Of a DNA stretch of 17,041 bases, positions 1 through 5,319 are shown piece after piece. The position numbers and the translations under genes are program-made. Under the pieces are notes generated by a model, which was given only the letters and a program-made list of their open reading frames with translations, did not search any database and had not been told where the DNA came from. Position 1 is the first letter of the stretch. Every line of letters starts with the position of its first letter. Source of the DNA: a virus (Duplodnaviria > Heunggongvirae > Uroviricota > Caudoviricetes); the IMG/VR virus record IMGVR_UViG_643348547_000011; one strand, given 5' to 3'.

Positions 1-1209
1 ATGTCGGTTTTTCATAACTGGCTGCTTGATATCGCAAGCGGGAATTACTTTATCTACATCAAACGCCTTTCTGCAAACGACACTGGCGCAACAGGTGGCC
101 ATCAGGTCGGACTTTATATCCCCTCAAATATCGTTGAAAAGCTTTTTCCATCTATCAATCATACTCGCGAACTGAACCCTTCAGTCTTCCTTACTGCGCA
201 TGTATCATCCCATGATTGCCCTGATACCCAAGCACGCGCAATTTATTACAACAACCGTTATTTTGGTAAGACCCGAAACGAAAAAAGAATTACGCGCTGG
301 GGGAGAGGAAGTCCATTACAGAACCCTGAAAATACAGGAGCTCTCACAATTCTTGCTTTCAGGTTAAACGAACAGAACACTGACTGTTCCGAGGTAGATA
401 TATGGGTCTGCGTCAATCCCGATGAAGAGGATATCATCGAGTCTGCTATTGGCGAAATCATACCTGGAACCCTAATTTCCGGCCCTGCCGGACAAATTTT
501 GGGCGGATTATCTCTTCAGCAAACTCCAGTAAATCATAAATATGTTATTCCTGAAGACTGGAAGAAGCGTTTTCCTTCTGGAAACGAAATTATTCAATAT
601 GCTGCTGGCCATTATGCTAAAAACTCCAAGGATCCAGATGAGCAACTGATTGACCGTCGGCGTGTCGAGTATGATATTTTTCTACTCGTCGAGGAATTAC
701 ATGTTCTTGATATTATTAAGAAAGGATTCGATTCTGTAGATGAGTTTATTGCATTAGCCAACTCTGTCAGTAATCGACGTAAATCAAGGGCAGGCAAATC
801 ACTTGAACTTCACCTAGAGAAGCTTTTTATCGAGCACGGACTACGGCATTTCTCCACTCAGGCAGTTACTGAAGGTAATAAAAAACCAGATTTCCTGTTT
901 CCTTCAGCAGAGGCATATCATAACGTTGAATTTCCTGTAGAAAACTTACGTATGCTGGCAGTAAAGACCACCTGCAAAGATCGCTGGCGTCAGATACTGA
1001 ATGAAGCAGATAAAATCCATCAGGTACATTTATTTACACTGCAAGAAGGTGTTTCTTCAGCACAATACCGAGAAATGAAAGATGCGGGTGTCAGACTCGT
1101 TGTACCATCAACTTTACATAAAAAATACCCAGAAGCAGTTAGAGAAGAATTAATAACGCTCGGAGCATTCATTACTGAGCTGATAGAGCTTTACGCTGAA
1201 CTATCATAG
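1..1209 (+). CDS. Type IIE restriction endonuclease, EcoRII family (expected CCWGG specificity)
   Basis: 402-aa ORF from ATG at position 1 to TAG at 1207-1209. Length and N-terminal region (MSVFHNWLL...RLSANDTGATGGHQVGLYIP) match what I recall of the EcoRII endonuclease (about 400 aa). It is arranged tail-to-tail with a Dcm/M.EcoRII-family methylase, which is the known EcoRII layout. Identity is from memory, not a search. Confidence 0.75.
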   Translation: MSVFHNWLLDIASGNYFIYIKRLSANDTGATGGHQVGLYIPSNIVEKLFPSINHTRELNPSVFLTAHVSSHDCPDTQARAIYYNNRYFGKTRNEKRITRWGRGSPLQNPENTGALTILAFRLNEQNTDCSEVDIWVCVNPDEEDIIESAIGEIIPGTLISGPAGQILGGLSLQQTPVNHKYVIPEDWKKRFPSGNEIIQYAAGHYAKNSKDPDEQLIDRRRVEYDIFLLVEELHVLDIIKKGFDSVDEFIALANSVSNRRKSRAGKSLELHLEKLFIEHGLRHFSTQAVTEGNKKPDFLFPSAEAYHNVEFPVENLRMLAVKTTCKDRWRQILNEADKIHQVHLFTLQEGVSSAQYREMKDAGVRLVVPSTLHKKYPEAVREELITLGAFITELIELYAELS

Positions 1210-1214
1210 GCTGA

Positions 1215-1237
1215 CTCCCGGCTTAAAAGGCCGGGAG
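1215..1237. terminator. Hairpin between the convergent restriction and methylase genes (possible bidirectional terminator)
   Basis: CTCCCGGC (1215-1222) pairs with GCCGGGAG (1230-1237) around a 7-nt loop; it sits in the 34-bp gap between the two stop codons (1207-1209 and 1244-1246). No strong U-tract on either side. Confidence 0.45.
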
Positions 1238-1243
1238 GTGTTC

Positions 1244-2677
1244 TCAAGGCTGCCCAGTCTTACCAGCATCAGCAGAAACAGCTTTGAGGATATAGGGTTC
1301 CAGAAGTCTGGCAACAGCTTCAAATACTGGCACCACAACTGAGTTACCGAACTGCCGATATGACTGAGTATCTGAAACCGGAATACGGAATGGTTTCCCT
1401 CCAGGTTTTTCAAATCCCATAAGGCGTGCGCACTCTCGGGGAGTCAGCCTGCGTGGTCGACGAGCCTGATTACTCTCATTCATAAAGTCAGCCTCTCCCG
1501 TTGCCATATCCCAACCACGATCAATAAGAATTTCTGATCCGTCTTTGTGATATCTGGCAGAAAGTGTGCGTGCAATGCTTTCCTTATTCTCAGGATTGAC
1601 CAACCCAAAGCCAAAACCATTCCCCTTGGCTGCATGCTTTTTGGCGTAGTTATAAAGGTACTCCCATAGTTTTGGCGTAAGTATATATTTACTGTCGACT
1701 ACAGGCTCCAGCAATTCACCAAATGATGGGCGGTGTTCCGGATAAAAACGACTGATATCACGCAAGGTAAACCCCTTGTGAATATTCAGATCTCGTCTAA
1801 ATCCGACCAGAACAATGCGTTCACGATGCTGAGGCAAAAAATGCTTCCCATCGATAATCTTTGGATCGTTTTTTCCCATTTCTGCAGCATCGGCAACTTC
1901 GTAGCCCAGCTCGTCAAGGGTCTCCATAATGACTTTGAAAGTTTTACCCTTATCATGGCTCTTCAGATTTTTGACATTTTCCAGCACAAAAATTGCCGGT
2001 TTTTTTGCTCGTATAATACGTGCCACGTCAAAAAAAAGTGTTCCTTGTGCTTCACATTCAAAACCATGCGCACGGCCAAGTGAGTTTTTCTTACTAACAC
2101 CAGCAAGACTAAATGGCTGGCACGGGAACCCCGCAAGAAGCACATCATGATCCGGCACATGCTCATCAATATATGCATAAGCATCCGTTTCCAATACATC
2201 GGTTTTATCACTCAACGTGACTTCCCGAATATCGAGATTGAATTTATGCACCTGTTCATCGTTAAACCAGTTGGCCTTGTATGTACGCACAGCATCTTTA
2301 TTCCATTCACTGGTAAAAACACACTGGCCTCCAATAGCCTCAAAACCTTTTCGTATCCCTCCAATTCCAGCAAATAAGTCAATGAAGCGGAAAGCATATT
2401 CCGGATGGTTTGCAGGTGGTTCTGGTAGCATCTTACGCAGAAGAGACTCTTCTACTGACGTCAACGATTTTGGTAAACACTTGCCATTAATCCAGCGGTT
2501 AATGGTTTCACGGCTCCACTCATTTTTTCCGACTTTTCTCAGTAATTCAGCCACATACTTCTGATCATAGATTTCCAGCACTTTCTCGATAAGCTTTTTA
2601 TCATTTTCCTGTCGCAGCTTTTCTTCCGCCTCGGCTTCCTTCAGCAGATGCTGTGCCAACACTTCAAATTCAGACAT
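1244..2677 (-). CDS. DNA (cytosine-5) methyltransferase, Dcm/M.EcoRII family
   Basis: ORF track gives 1244..2719; I place the start at the internal ATG 2675-2677 (MSEFEVLAQ...), preceded by GGAGG at 2682-2686. C5-MTase motifs are present: [14 protein letters not shown] (AdoMet binding), [11 protein letters not shown] (catalytic Pro-Cys), [22 protein letters not shown] and [10 protein letters not shown]. The overall pattern is that of CCWGG-specific Dcm/M.EcoRII enzymes. Confidence 0.9.
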
Positions 2678-3079
2678 AATTCCTCCAAGGGGTCTAATGG
2701 GTGAAACTCTATCACTCATTCAACCCAGAAGGAAATGTTTTGTCTGGATATTTAAACAGTGACTACAACGTAATCTAGCACTAGTGATGCTTTGTTAGGC
2801 ATAGAGAATCATTCTATATACGACTAATGACAGAAAAACAGCAGACAAGTAGTTTGCTCATAAATTAACGCATACTACGTGCCTACGGTTTTCGAGACCG
2901 GTCCAATCATCAAACGAAACATAAAATTAATTCACACTATGAGGAAAAGTATCTTTTTTTACTATGTAAATTCAAAGGATTAGCCTCATTTACCCGATAG
3001 TTTTCTCAACACTACTGGTTGTGAGCCCTTGCAATGTTCATTAATATACGTCTCACAAATAATTCATAGATATTGCAAA

Positions 3080-4105: not shown

Positions 4106-4252
4106 TTATTTAAAAAATCGCAAACAGAATATTATTATTTATTCTTGCATTCTGTTAATTAAAACCACACATAAAAACGTTGATACTTGATAAGTAAGTA
4201 GAGTATTATTAATGGTTTTAATAACGAACCTTTTAATCATGAGAAGCCTCAA

Positions 4253-5278
4253 ATGACTAGTACCAATAACATAACAAGAAAAAAAATGGATGGAGTAACA
4301 ATCTTAAGATTTATAGCTGCTTTTTATGTGTTTATTTTTCACATTAACATGAGAGTCCCCGTTAATTTTGGAGAGCTTATTAATAAAACCATTAGCAATG
4401 GCGTCATTGGCATGAGTATTTTCTTCATGCTTTCTGGTTTTGTTTTGACTTATAATTACTATGGTTCCTTGTCAAACAATTACTTCAGGAAGCGAATAGC
4501 AAGAATATTTCCAGCCTATTTATTTTGTGGGCTTTTAACCCTCCCATTTTTGTTATCCAGCGATGCAAACTTTTTAAAAATGATTGCAAGCATATTCTTG
4601 TTTGTTACTGGAATGCAATCATGGATTTATCAGACCTTCGATTTTTGGAATTTTAGCGGTACCTGGTCAATATCAGTGGAATTGTTTTTTTATGCCCTAT
4701 TTCCATTTTTGATAAAAAACATCAACAAAAACAATGTAATTTATGTTTTACTTTTTTCATATTTATCTTCAGCATTATTAATCCCATTATCTGATATAAT
4801 TCAGGGACCTGTAGTTTGGTCCGTATATTACGCAACTCCAATATACAGGTTACCAGAATTTGTGGTGGGCGTCTGTATCGCAATACTTTTTTTAAATGGC
4901 TATCGTGTTAACCATTATACATGGCTATTAAGCATTTTATTATTTCTGTATGCTACCACCCAGCAAAACAATAACTCCATGGGGGTGAACTATCTCACAA
5001 TTCCTGCGATATCAATTATGTTATTGCACCTGGCAAAAATCAACATCAAAAACAATATTGTAAACAGAGCGATCATTTACTTTGGAGATATAAGTTATTC
5101 GTTTTATTTGATGCAATTACCTATATTATATTACCTTGATCATAATAAAAATTCATTTGTTCTTAACTATGGTCTTTTTAGCTGGCTTGTACTTTTTGTT
5201 ATTAATACTGCAATGGCATCATTATCTTATCACTTTCTGGAGAAGAACGATAAAATCAGAAAAATAATCACATCCTAA
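4253..5278 (+). CDS. Acyltransferase family 3 integral membrane protein (OafA/Oac-like O-acyltransferase)
   Basis: 341-aa ORF from ATG 4253-4255 to TAA 5276-5278. Strongly hydrophobic multi-pass protein with acyltransferase-3 hallmarks near the N-terminus (ILRFIAAFYVFIFH, IFFMLSGFVL, RIARIFPAY). Much more AT-rich by eye than its neighbours. Start could instead be Met12 (4286). Confidence 0.75.
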   Translation: MTSTNNITRKKMDGVTILRFIAAFYVFIFHINMRVPVNFGELINKTISNGVIGMSIFFMLSGFVLTYNYYGSLSNNYFRKRIARIFPAYLFCGLLTLPFLLSSDANFLKMIASIFLFVTGMQSWIYQTFDFWNFSGTWSISVELFFYALFPFLIKNINKNNVIYVLLFSYLSSALLIPLSDIIQGPVVWSVYYATPIYRLPEFVVGVCIAILFLNGYRVNHYTWLLSILLFLYATTQQNNNSMGVNYLTIPAISIMLLHLAKINIKNNIVNRAIIYFGDISYSFYLMQLPILYYLDHNKNSFVLNYGLFSWLVLFVINTAMASLSYHFLEKNDKIRKIITS

Positions 5279-5280
5279 TT

Positions 5281-5304
5281 TATTAGGGGGGCCTCCCCCT
5301 AATA
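5281..5304. terminator. Perfect 10-bp hairpin between the convergent acyltransferase and tfa genes
   Basis: TATTAGGGGG (5281-5290), loop GCCT, CCCCCTAATA (5295-5304); it lies between the stop codons at 5276-5278 (+) and 5320-5322 (-). Confidence 0.5.
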
Positions 5305-5319
5305 ATACACCACATAATT

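What the first reader, a model, noticed from the sequence alone, without database searches (positions are those of the whole stretch)
1..5319. Re-used cargo hotspot at the fibre-distal end of an e14-like element
Downstream of tfa the order is acyltransferase, invertase remnant, GIY-YIG protein, methylase and endonuclease, with alternating strands, terminator hairpins between convergent genes, and at least three visibly different base compositions (AT-rich acyltransferase, intermediate R-M and GIY-YIG, GC-rich tail genes). That pattern suggests several independent acquisitions into one hotspot, which is the signature of defence and moron islands at prophage ends.
Basis: inference. Interest (0 to 1): 0.6.

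Follow-up and report, generated by a model that had tools for sequence, protein, structure and literature searches.

The report
Prophage-end defence and moron cargo slot
The first 5.3 kb of the window is the variable cargo slot between the tail-fibre genes and the ssrA attachment site of a decayed SfV/e14-type E. coli prophage; it holds separately acquired but already known modules (an EcoRII-type restriction-modification pair, the CMoRE/PD-T4-3 nuclease and a surface acyltransferase), so it is a clear but fairly ordinary example of a prophage defence hotspot.

Summary
Gene order, alternating strands, a strong hairpin at each of three convergent gene junctions and three GC classes (31.6 %, 42-44.5 %, 54-58 %) are all present.

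- **The element.** It is a truncated SfV/e14-family prophage lying 234 bp downstream of ssrA. IS629 cuts it off at 12556.
- **The cargo.** It comprises an EcoRII-like type IIE restriction-modification pair (nuclease about 86 % identical to EcoRII), CMoRE/PD-T4-3 (98 % identical to PDB 9U75), a 50-codon pin pseudogene and an AT3 acyltransferase.
- **Separate distributions in 5426 complete E. coli genomes.**
  - tail module: 1417
  - PD-T4-3: about 860
  - restriction-modification pair plus PD-T4-3: 243
  - acyltransferase/tfa/fibre-tip module: 65, in part in an unrelated att-lambda prophage
  - whole block: 4
- **The same slot in relatives.** It carries McrA (330 genomes), GmrSD (298), gtr genes or other cargo, in prophages at five integration sites.
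- **Joints.** They fall at the pin terminator hairpin, the pin 3' remnant and the pix crossover site. In a circular 43.7-kb relative, ssrA-like att repeats bracket the restriction-modification pair plus PD-T4-3.

All parts belong to known families, and cargo in this slot has been described piecemeal. I rate it a new member of a known kind, of moderate interest.

The parts
1..1209 (+). EcoRII-like type IIE restriction endonuclease, 402 aa
   Evidence: Pfam EcoRII-N (3.9e-61) and EcoRII-C (2.4e-71). Full-length match to EcoRII PDB 1NA6 (E 1e-242, about 86 % identity by my count of the printed alignment). PADLOC REase_II.
1215..1237 (.). 10-bp-stem hairpin between the convergent endonuclease and methyltransferase genes
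   Evidence: Fold -19.1 kcal/mol, z = -3.0. Sequence read.
1244..2677 (-). Dcm/M.EcoRII-type C5-cytosine methyltransferase, 477 aa
   Evidence: Pfam DNA_methylase plus DNA_meth_N. NCBIfam PRK10458 at 927 bits against a cut-off of 710. RefSeq CDS in CE10.
2869..2893 (.). Partial copy (right arm only) of the pin-terminator hairpin, at the joint between the restriction-modification cassette and the CMoRE cassette
   Evidence: Motif search. Genomes that carry PD-T4-3 alone lose homology at 2870-2886.
3080..3853 (+). CMoRE/PD-T4-3, a GIY-YIG type IV nuclease dependent on 5hmC/glucosyl-5hmC, 257 aa
   Evidence: PADLOC PD-T4-3, E 2.7e-140, full length. 98 % identical to crystallised E. coli O157:H7 CMoRE, PDB 9U75. 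Function taken from PMC12923530.
3873..3914 (.). Hairpin between CMoRE and the pin stop codon; the same hairpin recurs at cassette joints in relatives
   Evidence: Fold -16.3/-22.5 kcal/mol. Copies listed.
3914..4064 (-). pinE pseudogene: C-terminal 50 codons, two in-frame stops, N-terminal 135 codons deleted
   Evidence: Translation and alignment to intact PinE of strain 15.03CC. RefSeq pseudogene note.
4180..4209 (+). Promoter-like site 44 bp upstream of the acyltransferase start
   Evidence: TTGATA-18-TATTAT, 10 of 12 matches. This is a consensus match only.
4253..5278 (+). AT3-family membrane acyltransferase, 341 aa, 31.6 % GC
   Evidence: Pfam Acyl_transf_3. PHROG 3333 'O-acetyltransferase' 1.7e-40 and PHROG 6705 'O-antigen acetylase'. 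Homologues listed.
5280..5305 (.). 11-bp-stem hairpin between the convergent acyltransferase and tfa genes
   Evidence: Fold -17.0 kcal/mol, z = -3.2.
5320..5715 (-). Tail fibre assembly protein (tfa)
   Evidence: Pfam Caudo_TAP 2.5e-23. PHROG 188.
5715..6665 (-). Chimeric tail fibre, 316 aa: N-terminus of SfV/e14 StfP type, glycine-rich C-terminal tip from an att-lambda-type prophage
   Evidence: Pfam Gly_rich_2. PHROGs. Break points 6358-6387.
6363..6388 (-). The single surviving pix crossover site of the former invertible fibre switch; it is also the right-hand joint of the swapped module
   Evidence: CTCTCGAAAATCTTGGTTTGGGAGAT is homologous to the e14 site that forms the 21-nt inverted repeat L003 13286-13306/15104-15124. 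No partner site exists in the window.
6669..12555 (-). SfV/e14-family baseplate and tail genes: ymfQ, J, gp46, V, baseplate protein, DNA circularisation protein, and the 3' part of the tape-measure gene
   Evidence: 97-98 % identical to SfI/SfII/SfV. RefSeq annotation. Pfam.
12556..13865 (-). IS629 (IS3 family), which truncates the prophage in the tape-measure gene; no target-site duplication
   Evidence: Inverted-repeat ends read, with flanks AGC against ACC. IS629 matches. ALIL frameshift pseudoknot at 13414-13530.

Best explanation
**What it is.** Bases 1-6388, together with 234 bp upstream of the window, are the accessory-gene slot of an SfV/e14-family temperate phage. The slot lies between the tail-fibre genes and the phage attachment site. 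Here that site is the 3' end of ssrA.

**How it was assembled.** Three steps can be separated.
1. A CMoRE/PD-T4-3 cassette sits directly behind the pin invertase gene. This is the commonest state of the slot in E. coli.
2. An EcoRII-type restriction-modification cassette, a gene pair otherwise common on enterobacterial plasmids, was added between CMoRE and the att site.
3. A 2.4-kb module replaced the invertible fibre segment and most of pin. It carries a glycine-rich fibre tip, tfa, an AT3 acyltransferase and a pin 3' stub. The replacement occurred by recombination in the pin 3' end (3953-4064) and at the pix crossover site (6363-6388). The module is the same as one found in an otherwise unrelated prophage at att-lambda.
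Afterwards IS629 removed the rest of the prophage.

**Inferred function: layered protection of the lysogen against superinfection.**
- The EcoRII-like enzyme cuts unmethylated CCWGG DNA.
- CMoRE cuts 5hmC- and glucosyl-5hmC-containing T-even DNA, which escapes type II enzymes.
- The acyltransferase probably O-acetylates a surface polysaccharide that serves as a phage receptor.

**What is shown and what is inferred.**
- Shown here: gene identities, break points, population distributions and the att site.
- Inferred: the order of the steps, the CCWGG specificity, the acyltransferase substrate and expression of the genes.
For: **Gene identities:**

**Location beside ssrA:**. The same ssrA|endonuclease junction occurs in 128 genomes.

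**The cargo is carried by phages**
- A complete ssrA-integrated relative (AH21G053) has 185-nt att repeats enclosing both cargo and phage, with int at the far end.
- A circular 43,680-bp relative, deposited as a plasmid (AH02), has the order int - att-like region - endonuclease - methyltransferase - PD-T4-3 - acyltransferase - tfa - fibre - tail. It is 98.6 % identical to window 1-3916.

**Parts are separable**
- PD-T4-3 in about 860 genomes, with the restriction-modification pair in 243, and the pair without PD-T4-3 in at least one.
- The acyltransferase module in 65 genomes, including E. coli B at att-lambda.
- The whole block in 4 genomes.

**Break points:** 2870-2886, 3953-4064 and 6358-6387.

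**The slot is bounded by the att core:** the 46-nt thrW core lies at its outer edge in 8 loci.

**Alternative cargo in the same slot:** McrA, GmrSD, an Mrr-like nuclease, a DpnII-like nuclease, sugar acetyltransferases and unknowns.

**Published context**
- CMoRE mechanism: PMC12923530.
- PD-T4-3 is active in a native host: bioRxiv 10.1101/2024.12.20.629700.
- gtr genes always sit next to attP in SfV-type phages: PMC3636060.
- GmrSD lies downstream of the fibre genes of an SfII-like prophage: PMC4437046.
Against: - No expression or activity data exist for this locus.
- The three hairpins lack clear U-tracts, and the terminator scan is not enriched over shuffles.
- The acyltransferase has no close characterised homologue: at most 29 % identity to annotated phage O-acetyltransferases and 40-69 % to unnamed enterobacterial proteins. 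It is frameshifted in strain CE10.
- The order of acquisition cannot be proved from presence/absence counts. Losses could produce the same pattern.
- Most ssrA-linked copies examined are remnants.
- The genome counts include many clonal laboratory K-12 strains.
Confidence: 0.85

Rival explanations
1. The restriction-modification pair and the GIY-YIG gene belong to a separate chromosomal defence island that targets ssrA. They merely abut a decayed prophage and are not phage cargo.
For: - ssrA is a known integration hotspot, and the window also holds CP4-57 leftovers (ypjA, pinH, ypjCB).
- The block carries an ssrA 3' core even when it lies in a thrW prophage.
- In the circular relative it is bracketed by two direct ssrA-like repeats, as an integrated mini-island would be.
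Against: - The block lies inside the att boundaries of thrW prophages.
- It also lies inside a circular 43.7-kb phage genome.
- PD-T4-3 was directly beside pin in every PD-T4-3-positive locus inspected that has pin. In AH21G053 a PD-T4-3 paralogue lies further out, beyond GmrSD.
- No integrase or other mobility gene lies within the block.
Confidence: 0.08
2. The compositional steps reflect coding constraints, such as the AT-rich codons of a hydrophobic membrane protein, rather than separate origins. On this view the block is one inherited unit.
For: The acyltransferase is a polytopic membrane protein rich in Phe, Ile, Leu, Asn and Tyr. That composition lowers GC at first and second codon positions.
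Against: - GC3 is also low in the acyltransferase (34 %) and in the soluble tfa (31 %), against 61-66 % in the tail genes.
- The parts have different distributions and sharp homology break points.
Confidence: 0.03
3. The pattern arises from differential loss, not gain. An ancestral phage carried everything, and lineages then lost different parts.
For: Deletions and IS-mediated truncations are frequent at this locus.
Against: - The alternative cargoes (McrA, GmrSD, CMoRE, gtr, other acyltransferases) are unrelated genes occupying the same position, so loss alone cannot generate them.
- The acyltransferase module is 98 % identical to one in a prophage with no other DNA similarity.
- EcoRII-type pairs are mostly plasmid-borne at 60-81 % identity.
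Confidence: 0.05

Closest known systems
The pinE-mcrA end of cryptic prophage e14 in E. coli K-12
   Same: - Same phage family (96 % identity in ymfQ/jayE).
- Same layout: fibre, tfa, pin, then a nuclease that attacks modified DNA, then the att site.
   Different: - K-12 carries McrA (HNH, type IV) as its only cargo, keeps an intact pin and invertible segment, and sits at icd.
- The window carries CMoRE plus an EcoRII-type restriction-modification pair, has a dead switch and an added acyltransferase, and sits at ssrA.
The serotype-conversion (gtrABC) locus of Shigella phages SfV, SfI, SfII and SfX
   Same: - Tail genes 97-98 % identical.
- Accessory genes that modify the cell surface lie between the fibre genes and attP (PMC3636060).
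   Different: - Those phages carry glucosyltransferase genes, no pin and no nucleases, and integrate at thrW.
- Here the surface-modifying candidate is an AT3 acyltransferase, and most of the slot is nucleases.
GmrSD (Eco94GmrSD, UTI89 GmrSD) on SfII-like prophages
   Same: - A type IV enzyme against glucosyl-hmC phage lies immediately downstream of the tail-fibre genes of an SfII-like prophage (PMC4437046).
- I found the same pin'|GmrSD junction in 298 genomes.
   Different: It is a different nuclease family (DUF262/DUF1524, HNH) occupying the position that CMoRE holds here.
CMoRE / PD-T4-3
   Same: 98 % identical to the crystallised O157:H7 protein, with Y17, Y19 and Y31 of the GIYxY-YIG motif present.
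   Different: Nothing at the protein level. In the passages I read, the published work does not describe its genomic position beside pin in SfV/e14-type prophages.
EcoRII restriction-modification system (plasmid-borne type IIE)
   Same: - Both endonuclease domains are present.
- The methyltransferase is Dcm-type with the N-terminal regulatory domain.
- The genes are convergent, and the arrangement is collinear over 1-2760 with 1945 plasmid records.
   Different: - About 86 % protein identity and 60-81 % DNA identity to the plasmid copies.
- Here the pair is prophage-borne.
- Specificity is untested.
Defence hotspots of P2-like phages and P4-like satellites, and the 'moron' concept (from my own knowledge: Rousset et al. 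2022; Juhala/Hendrix 2000)
   Same: A fixed position in otherwise conserved prophages that holds alternative, compositionally foreign defence genes.
   Different: - A different phage family and a different position (next to the att site and the fibre invertase).
- Some cassette joints here carry att-like repeats.

Membership tests
Prophage accessory ('moron'/defence) hotspot | A fixed position between conserved phage genes and the att site | tested here: met
   The slot is bounded by the fibre/pin genes on one side. On the other side lies the ssrA 3' end, the 46-nt thrW core or the icd' fragment.
Prophage accessory ('moron'/defence) hotspot | Different gene content at that position in otherwise near-identical elements | tested here: met
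   At least nine cargo sets were found in the 20 slot loci read, whose tail genes are 96-98 % identical.
Prophage accessory ('moron'/defence) hotspot | Composition foreign to the phage backbone | tested here: met
   31.6-44.5 % GC against 54-58 % in the backbone.
Prophage accessory ('moron'/defence) hotspot | Autonomous transcription units with their own promoter and terminator | tested here: inconclusive
   Strong hairpins lie at all three convergent junctions, and a 10/12 promoter-like site precedes the acyltransferase. The terminator scan is not enriched and there are no expression data.
CMoRE / PD-T4-3 | Full-length similarity, including the C-terminal modification-sensing domain | tested here: met
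   PADLOC profile positions 1-255 of 256, E 2.7e-140. Residues 1-257 align to 9U75 at 98 % identity.
CMoRE / PD-T4-3 | GIYxY-YIG motif (Y17, Y19, Y31) | tested here: met
   The sequence reads ...GW-Y17-V-Y19-RL...F-Y31-VG. The motif is defined in PMC12923530.
CMoRE / PD-T4-3 | Restriction of phage containing 5hmC or glucosyl-5hmC | not testable with these tools
   Shown for the O157:H7 and APEC O1 proteins in PMC12923530, not for this locus.
EcoRII-type (type IIE) restriction-modification | An endonuclease with an N-terminal effector domain and a C-terminal catalytic domain | tested here: met
   Pfam EcoRII-N and EcoRII-C. Residues 1-401 align to 1NA6.
EcoRII-type (type IIE) restriction-modification | An adjacent cognate m5C methyltransferase of the Dcm/M.EcoRII subfamily | tested here: met
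   NCBIfam PRK10458 at 927 bits. DNA_meth_N domain. The convergent pair is collinear with plasmid copies.
EcoRII-type (type IIE) restriction-modification | CCWGG recognition, with cleavage that needs two sites | not testable with these tools
   Inferred from about 86 % identity to EcoRII only.
Din-family invertible tail-fibre switch (pin/pix, as in e14) | An intact serine invertase | tested here: not met
   Only about 50 C-terminal codons remain, with two stops.
Din-family invertible tail-fibre switch (pin/pix, as in e14) | Two inverted crossover sites flanking alternative fibre-tip/tfa genes | tested here: not met
   One site remains (6363-6388) with no partner, and the alternative fibre genes are replaced by the acyltransferase.
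Phage O-antigen O-acetyltransferase (Oac-like AT3) | An Acyl_transf_3 membrane domain | tested here: met
   Pfam PF01757, residues 14-316. PHROG 3333 and 6705.
Phage O-antigen O-acetyltransferase (Oac-like AT3) | Close similarity to a characterised O-antigen acetylase | tested here: not met
   Best phage hits are at most 29 % identical. The closest homologues outside E. coli are unnamed.
Phage O-antigen O-acetyltransferase (Oac-like AT3) | Acetylation of O-antigen and altered phage adsorption | not testable with these tools
   Requires LPS chemistry and adsorption assays.

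The most novel reading that the evidence does not exclude
**The slot may be re-used because it is itself an attachment site.**
- The phage's attP carries an ssrA-3'-like core preceded by a conserved hairpin.
- Cassettes may enter by integrase-mediated events. One route is integration of small ssrA-targeting islands into the phage's own att. Another is tandem integration at ssrA followed by excision at the outer sites.
- Either route would leave att-like scars at the cassette borders. This resembles tandem island accretion at tmRNA genes, but inside a phage genome.

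**A related reading.** The position beside pin in the SfV/e14 family may behave as a near-obligatory 'type IV restriction locus'. Three unrelated anti-hmC nucleases (McrA, GmrSD, CMoRE) alternate there like alleles. That would point to strong, fluctuating selection by T-even-like phages on lysogens.
Probability: 0.2. Interest if true: 0.55.

Novelty: new member of a known kind. Interest (0 to 1): 0.38.

Why it matters
- **Genomic address for CMoRE/PD-T4-3.** It places the recently characterised nuclease in a precise context: the slot beside the fibre invertase and the att site of SfV/e14-type prophages.
- **A shared slot for three nucleases.** McrA and GmrSD, the other two E. coli enzymes I found there that attack cytosine-modified DNA, occupy the same position in other strains. 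Together the three junctions were found in roughly 1500 genome hits among 5426 complete genomes.
- **Practical use.** The interval from the att core to the pix site in this prophage family is a short, well-bounded place to mine for unannotated defence genes. Several occupants found here match no family, for example a 502-aa protein in strain A2 and four proteins in strain D9.
- **Linked transfer of fibre and receptor modifier.** A receptor-binding fibre tip and a surface acyltransferase move together between unrelated prophages.
- **Limits.** None of this overturns current views. It is a clean, well-documented instance of them.

Tried and rejected
- **gix consensus.** Searching for a Gin/Hin-type crossover site with the gix consensus (up to 7 mismatches) found nothing. 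The site was found only by using the local sequence and the e14 inverted repeat.
- **Second ssrA core.** I looked for a second copy of the ssrA core to the right of the element in CE10, A14 and CP8-3. There is none. These copies are truncated remnants, so the right att site cannot be given for the window.
- **Complete ssrA-type prophage carrying this cargo.** A14 and CP8-3 were fetched in the hope of finding one. Both are deleted, by fusion to ypjA and by IS2/IS5 respectively.
- **Phage collection.** It has no close match listed for bases 1-6363 and only distant acyltransferase hits.
- **NCBIfam.** It gave nothing for the endonuclease, the GIY-YIG protein or the acyltransferase.
- **ORF 3969-4190 (73 aa).** It has no family hit and overlaps the pin remnant on the opposite strand, so I treat it as spurious.
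- **Hairpin as a pseudo-pix site.** I considered that the hairpin joints might be pseudo-pix sites used by Pin. Only the pentamer GGTTT is shared, so this was not pursued.
- **Literature.** Searches for a described 'e14/SfV defence hotspot' found no paper stating it as such. One search call failed because the phrase was too long.

Full report
**What is in the sequence.** The main ORFs of 1-6700 run in alternating orientation:
- 1-1209 (+): an endonuclease with both EcoRII domains.
- 1244-2677 (-): a Dcm-type m5C methyltransferase.
- 3080-3853 (+): a GIY-YIG protein.
- 3914-4064 (-): the last 50 codons of pinE, with two stops.
- 4253-5278 (+): an Acyl_transf_3 membrane protein.
- 5320-5715 (-): tfa.
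- 5715-6665 (-): a tail fibre.

Each of the three convergent junctions holds a strong hairpin:
- 1215-1237: -19.1 kcal/mol.
- 3873-3914: -16.3 and -22.5 kcal/mol on the two strands.
- 5280-5305: -17.0 kcal/mol.
- z-scores range from -3 to -4.

The simple terminator scan is not enriched over shuffles and lists none of these three hairpins, so I call them hairpins rather than proven terminators.

GC content falls into three classes:
- 31.6 % for the acyltransferase and 38 % for tfa.
- 42-44.5 % for the restriction-modification pair and the GIY-YIG gene.
- 54-58 % for the fibre and baseplate genes.
- GC3 shows the same steps.

**What the genes are.**
- The endonuclease aligns over its full length with EcoRII (PDB 1NA6, E 1e-242, about 86 % identity).
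- The methyltransferase passes the NCBIfam Dcm-subfamily cut-off and carries the DNA_meth_N regulatory domain.
- The GIY-YIG protein is PD-T4-3 (PADLOC, E 2.7e-140, full length). It is 98 % identical to the crystallised E. coli O157:H7 protein 9U75.
- That protein was characterised in 2026 as CMoRE, a type IV endonuclease specific for 5hmC and glucosyl-5hmC DNA (PMC12923530). It is active against T-even phages in a native host and acts in a modification-dependent way.
- The acyltransferase matches PHROG families annotated as O-acetyltransferase and O-antigen acetylase. It has no close characterised relative.

**Where the window comes from.**
- Bases 1-5800 are 100 % identical to three complete E. 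coli genomes. The full 17,041-base window aligns to strain CE10 at 99.96 %.
- In CE10, base 1 lies 234 bp downstream of ssrA.
- Bases 6364-12557 are 97-98 % identical to the tail regions of phages SfI, SfII and SfV.
- Part of that stretch is 96 % identical to K-12 e14, so 'e14-like' is right.
- IS629 cuts the element off at 12556-13865, with no target duplication. It is then joined to CP4-57 leftovers. The window therefore holds only the tail-and-cargo end of a dead prophage.

**Is the block one unit or several?** Counts in 5426 complete E. coli genomes:

| Feature | Genomes |
|---|---|
| ymfQ-J tail module | 1417 |
| PD-T4-3 region | about 860 |
| Restriction-modification pair plus PD-T4-3 | 243 |
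| ssrA\|endonuclease junction | 128 |
| Segment 4065-6363 (acyltransferase, tfa, fibre tip) | 65 |
| All of 1-5800 | 4 |

- Genomes that carry PD-T4-3 alone lose homology at 2870-2886.
- One genome carries the restriction-modification pair without PD-T4-3.
- Collinear EcoRII-type gene pairs occur on 1945 enterobacterial plasmid records at 60-81 % identity.
- The acyltransferase module is 98 % identical to one in E. coli B (REL606, BL21) and strain NRZ14408. There it belongs to a prophage at att-lambda that shares no other DNA with the window.
- The window matches that prophage over 3953-6387. It matches SfV-type relatives up to 4064 and again from 6358.
- The exchange therefore occurred within the shared pin 3' stub and within a 30-bp stretch that is the pix crossover site of the e14-type invertible fibre switch.
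- The switch is now dead. One pix site remains, and pin is reduced to a pseudogene.

**Is it a re-used hotspot?** I read 20 slot loci: 17 sampled prophage ends of this family, the window, K-12 e14 and the circular AH02 genome. The slot between the fibre/pin genes and the att site holds the following:

| Strain(s) | Integration site | Cargo in the slot |
|---|---|---|
| K-12 e14 | icd | McrA |
| O157:H7, UPEC-245U, DAM, GF161 | thrW | CMoRE, an AraC-type regulator, an IS remnant |
| 21EVA | thrW | CMoRE, an Mrr-like nuclease, a PDC-M01B-like protein |
| Window (ssrA) and 15.03CC (thrW) | ssrA / thrW | CMoRE plus the EcoRII-type pair |
| O166:H15 | icd | GmrSD |
| AH21G053 | ssrA | GmrSD, a second PD-T4-3 paralogue, a DpnII/MboI-like nuclease-domain protein |
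| LP50-1 | tRNA-Pro | SOS-response peptidase, DUF2188, a UmuC remnant |
| D9 | thrW | NeuD-type sugar acetyltransferase, a MaoC dehydratase, four unknowns |
| A2 | thrW | a 502-aa unknown |
| Ec40743 | argW | a DUF1919 protein beside intS |

- The exact 46-nt thrW att core lies at the outer edge of the slot in eight loci. This bounds the slot at 3.2-5.5 kb.
- Junction-specific searches found pinE|mcrA in 330 genomes and pin'|GmrSD in 298.
- With the roughly 860 PD-T4-3 genomes, the position beside pin very often holds one of three unrelated nucleases that attack cytosine-modified DNA.
- The counts include clonal laboratory strains.

**Attachment site and proof of phage carriage.**
- AH21G053 has a complete prophage of this family at ssrA.
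- A 185-nt repeat (the ssrA 3' end plus about 150 nt, 90.8 % identical) brackets cargo, tail, head, lysis and early genes, with the integrase at the far end.
- CE10 and AH21G053 share the first ~150 nt after ssrA and then diverge into different cargo. The variable region thus begins right at the att arm.
- A record deposited as a 43,680-bp circular plasmid of strain AH02 is a complete phage genome of this family.
- Its order is int - DinI - att-like region - endonuclease - methyltransferase - PD-T4-3 - a different AT3 acyltransferase - tfa - fibre - tail. That acyltransferase is 23 % identical to the window's, and that tfa is 38 % identical.
- The AH02 record is 98.6 % identical to window 1-3916.
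- The cargo is therefore carried on the phage chromosome next to attP. This matches the published rule that gtr genes lie immediately upstream of attP in SfV-type phages (PMC3636060).

**Cassette joints.**
- The hairpin after the pin stop codon (3873-3914) recurs at joints.
- Its right arm is repeated at 2869-2893, exactly where the restriction-modification cassette and the CMoRE cassette meet.
- Full copies with a conserved left flank precede the ssrA-like core in 15.03CC and AH02. Further copies precede the PD-T4-3 cassette in 21EVA and the GmrSD gene in AH21G053.
- In AH02, two direct repeats (19412-19538 and 23575-23692) bracket the restriction-modification pair plus PD-T4-3. Each repeat comprises the hairpin arm, an ssrA-like core and about 100 nt.
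- I read these as scars of successive recombination events at or near the att region.
- I cannot tell whether those events were integrase-mediated, homologous or microhomology-driven.
- For 15.03CC, the joint GCGGTTTCAACTCC against ssrA GCGGGTTCAACTCC is compatible with microhomology.

**How it most likely works.**
- *Shown:* the identities and the arrangement.
- *Inferred from the families:* the lysogen gains three complementary barriers.
  - The EcoRII-like enzyme cuts incoming DNA that lacks CCWGG methylation, while the cognate methyltransferase protects the host.
  - CMoRE destroys hmC and glucosyl-hmC genomes that are immune to type II enzymes.
  - The AT3 enzyme probably acetylates a surface polysaccharide and so blocks adsorption.
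- Two different versions of the trio acyltransferase + tfa + fibre tip sit at the same place (window and AH02). The window's version also moved as one piece between unrelated prophages. This suggests that the receptor-binding tip and the receptor modifier are functionally linked. That is inference.

**Novelty and verdict.**
- Every component belongs to a known family.
- Cargo in this slot has been reported piecemeal: McrA on e14, GmrSD downstream of the fibre genes of an SfII-like prophage (PMC4437046), and gtr genes next to attP.
- I did not find the following described in the papers searched:
  - CMoRE at this address.
  - The stacking of CMoRE with an EcoRII-type system.
  - The pix- and pin-mediated import of an acyltransferase module.
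  - The observation that three type IV enzymes alternate in one slot.
- I rate the finding as real, correctly interpreted, a new member of a known kind, and of moderate interest.

Noticed in passing
window 12556-13865, with flanks at 12553-12555 and 13866-13868: IS629 (1310 bp, with an ALIL frameshift pseudoknot at 13414-13530) truncates the tape-measure gene and has no target-site duplication (AGC against ACC). This suggests that an IS-mediated deletion joined the prophage remnant to a ypjA (AIDA-repeat) remnant of CP4-57.
   Followed up: partly
window 15740-15907: A second serine-invertase fragment (pinH-like) lies here. It is 82-84 % identical to the N-terminal part of pinE genes and belongs to the CP4-57 leftovers (ypjA', pinH', ypjCB) that follow the IS.
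   Followed up: no
window 11667-11961, compared with L002 29664-30438, L010 14060-14590 and L017 14057-14587: Relatives carry an extra gene between the DNA-circularisation and tape-measure genes: an OB-fold protein in 15.03CC and a 176-aa hypothetical protein in two other strains. The window lacks it. This may be a second small variable slot inside the tail operon.
   Followed up: no
window 5715-6665: RefSeq annotates this region in relatives as an 'stfP' pseudogene plus a separate glycine-rich-domain protein. In the window it is one intact 316-aa ORF, a chimeric fibre, so the pseudogene call may be an annotation artefact of the mosaic.
   Followed up: partly
window 4253-5278, compared with L001 24253-25279 (CE10): The acyltransferase is intact in the window but split into two CDSs by a 1-bp difference in strain CE10. 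The gene is therefore already decaying in one of the four genomes that carry the whole block.
   Followed up: partly
L021 (NZ_CP081704.1, 43,680 bp); also NZ_CP081794.1 and NZ_CP104634.1: Records deposited as E. coli plasmids are, by gene content, complete circular SfV/e14-type phage genomes that carry the same restriction-modification pair and PD-T4-3 cargo. They may be excised or replicating prophages captured by assembly.
   Followed up: partly
L013 1395-6489 (AH21G053); L016 4487-5995 (A2); L014 2664-5511 (D9): Other occupants of the same slot include a DpnII/MboI-like nuclease-domain protein, a second PD-T4-3 paralogue in the opposite orientation, and several proteins with no Pfam or PADLOC match (502 aa, 368 aa and others). 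The unmatched proteins are candidates for undescribed defence genes.
   Followed up: partly
L004 208-4668 (O157:H7 MB9-1): Beyond the thrW att core of the prophage lies a separate integrase-bearing element with 'ABC-three component system' proteins. The two elements sit in tandem at thrW.
   Followed up: no
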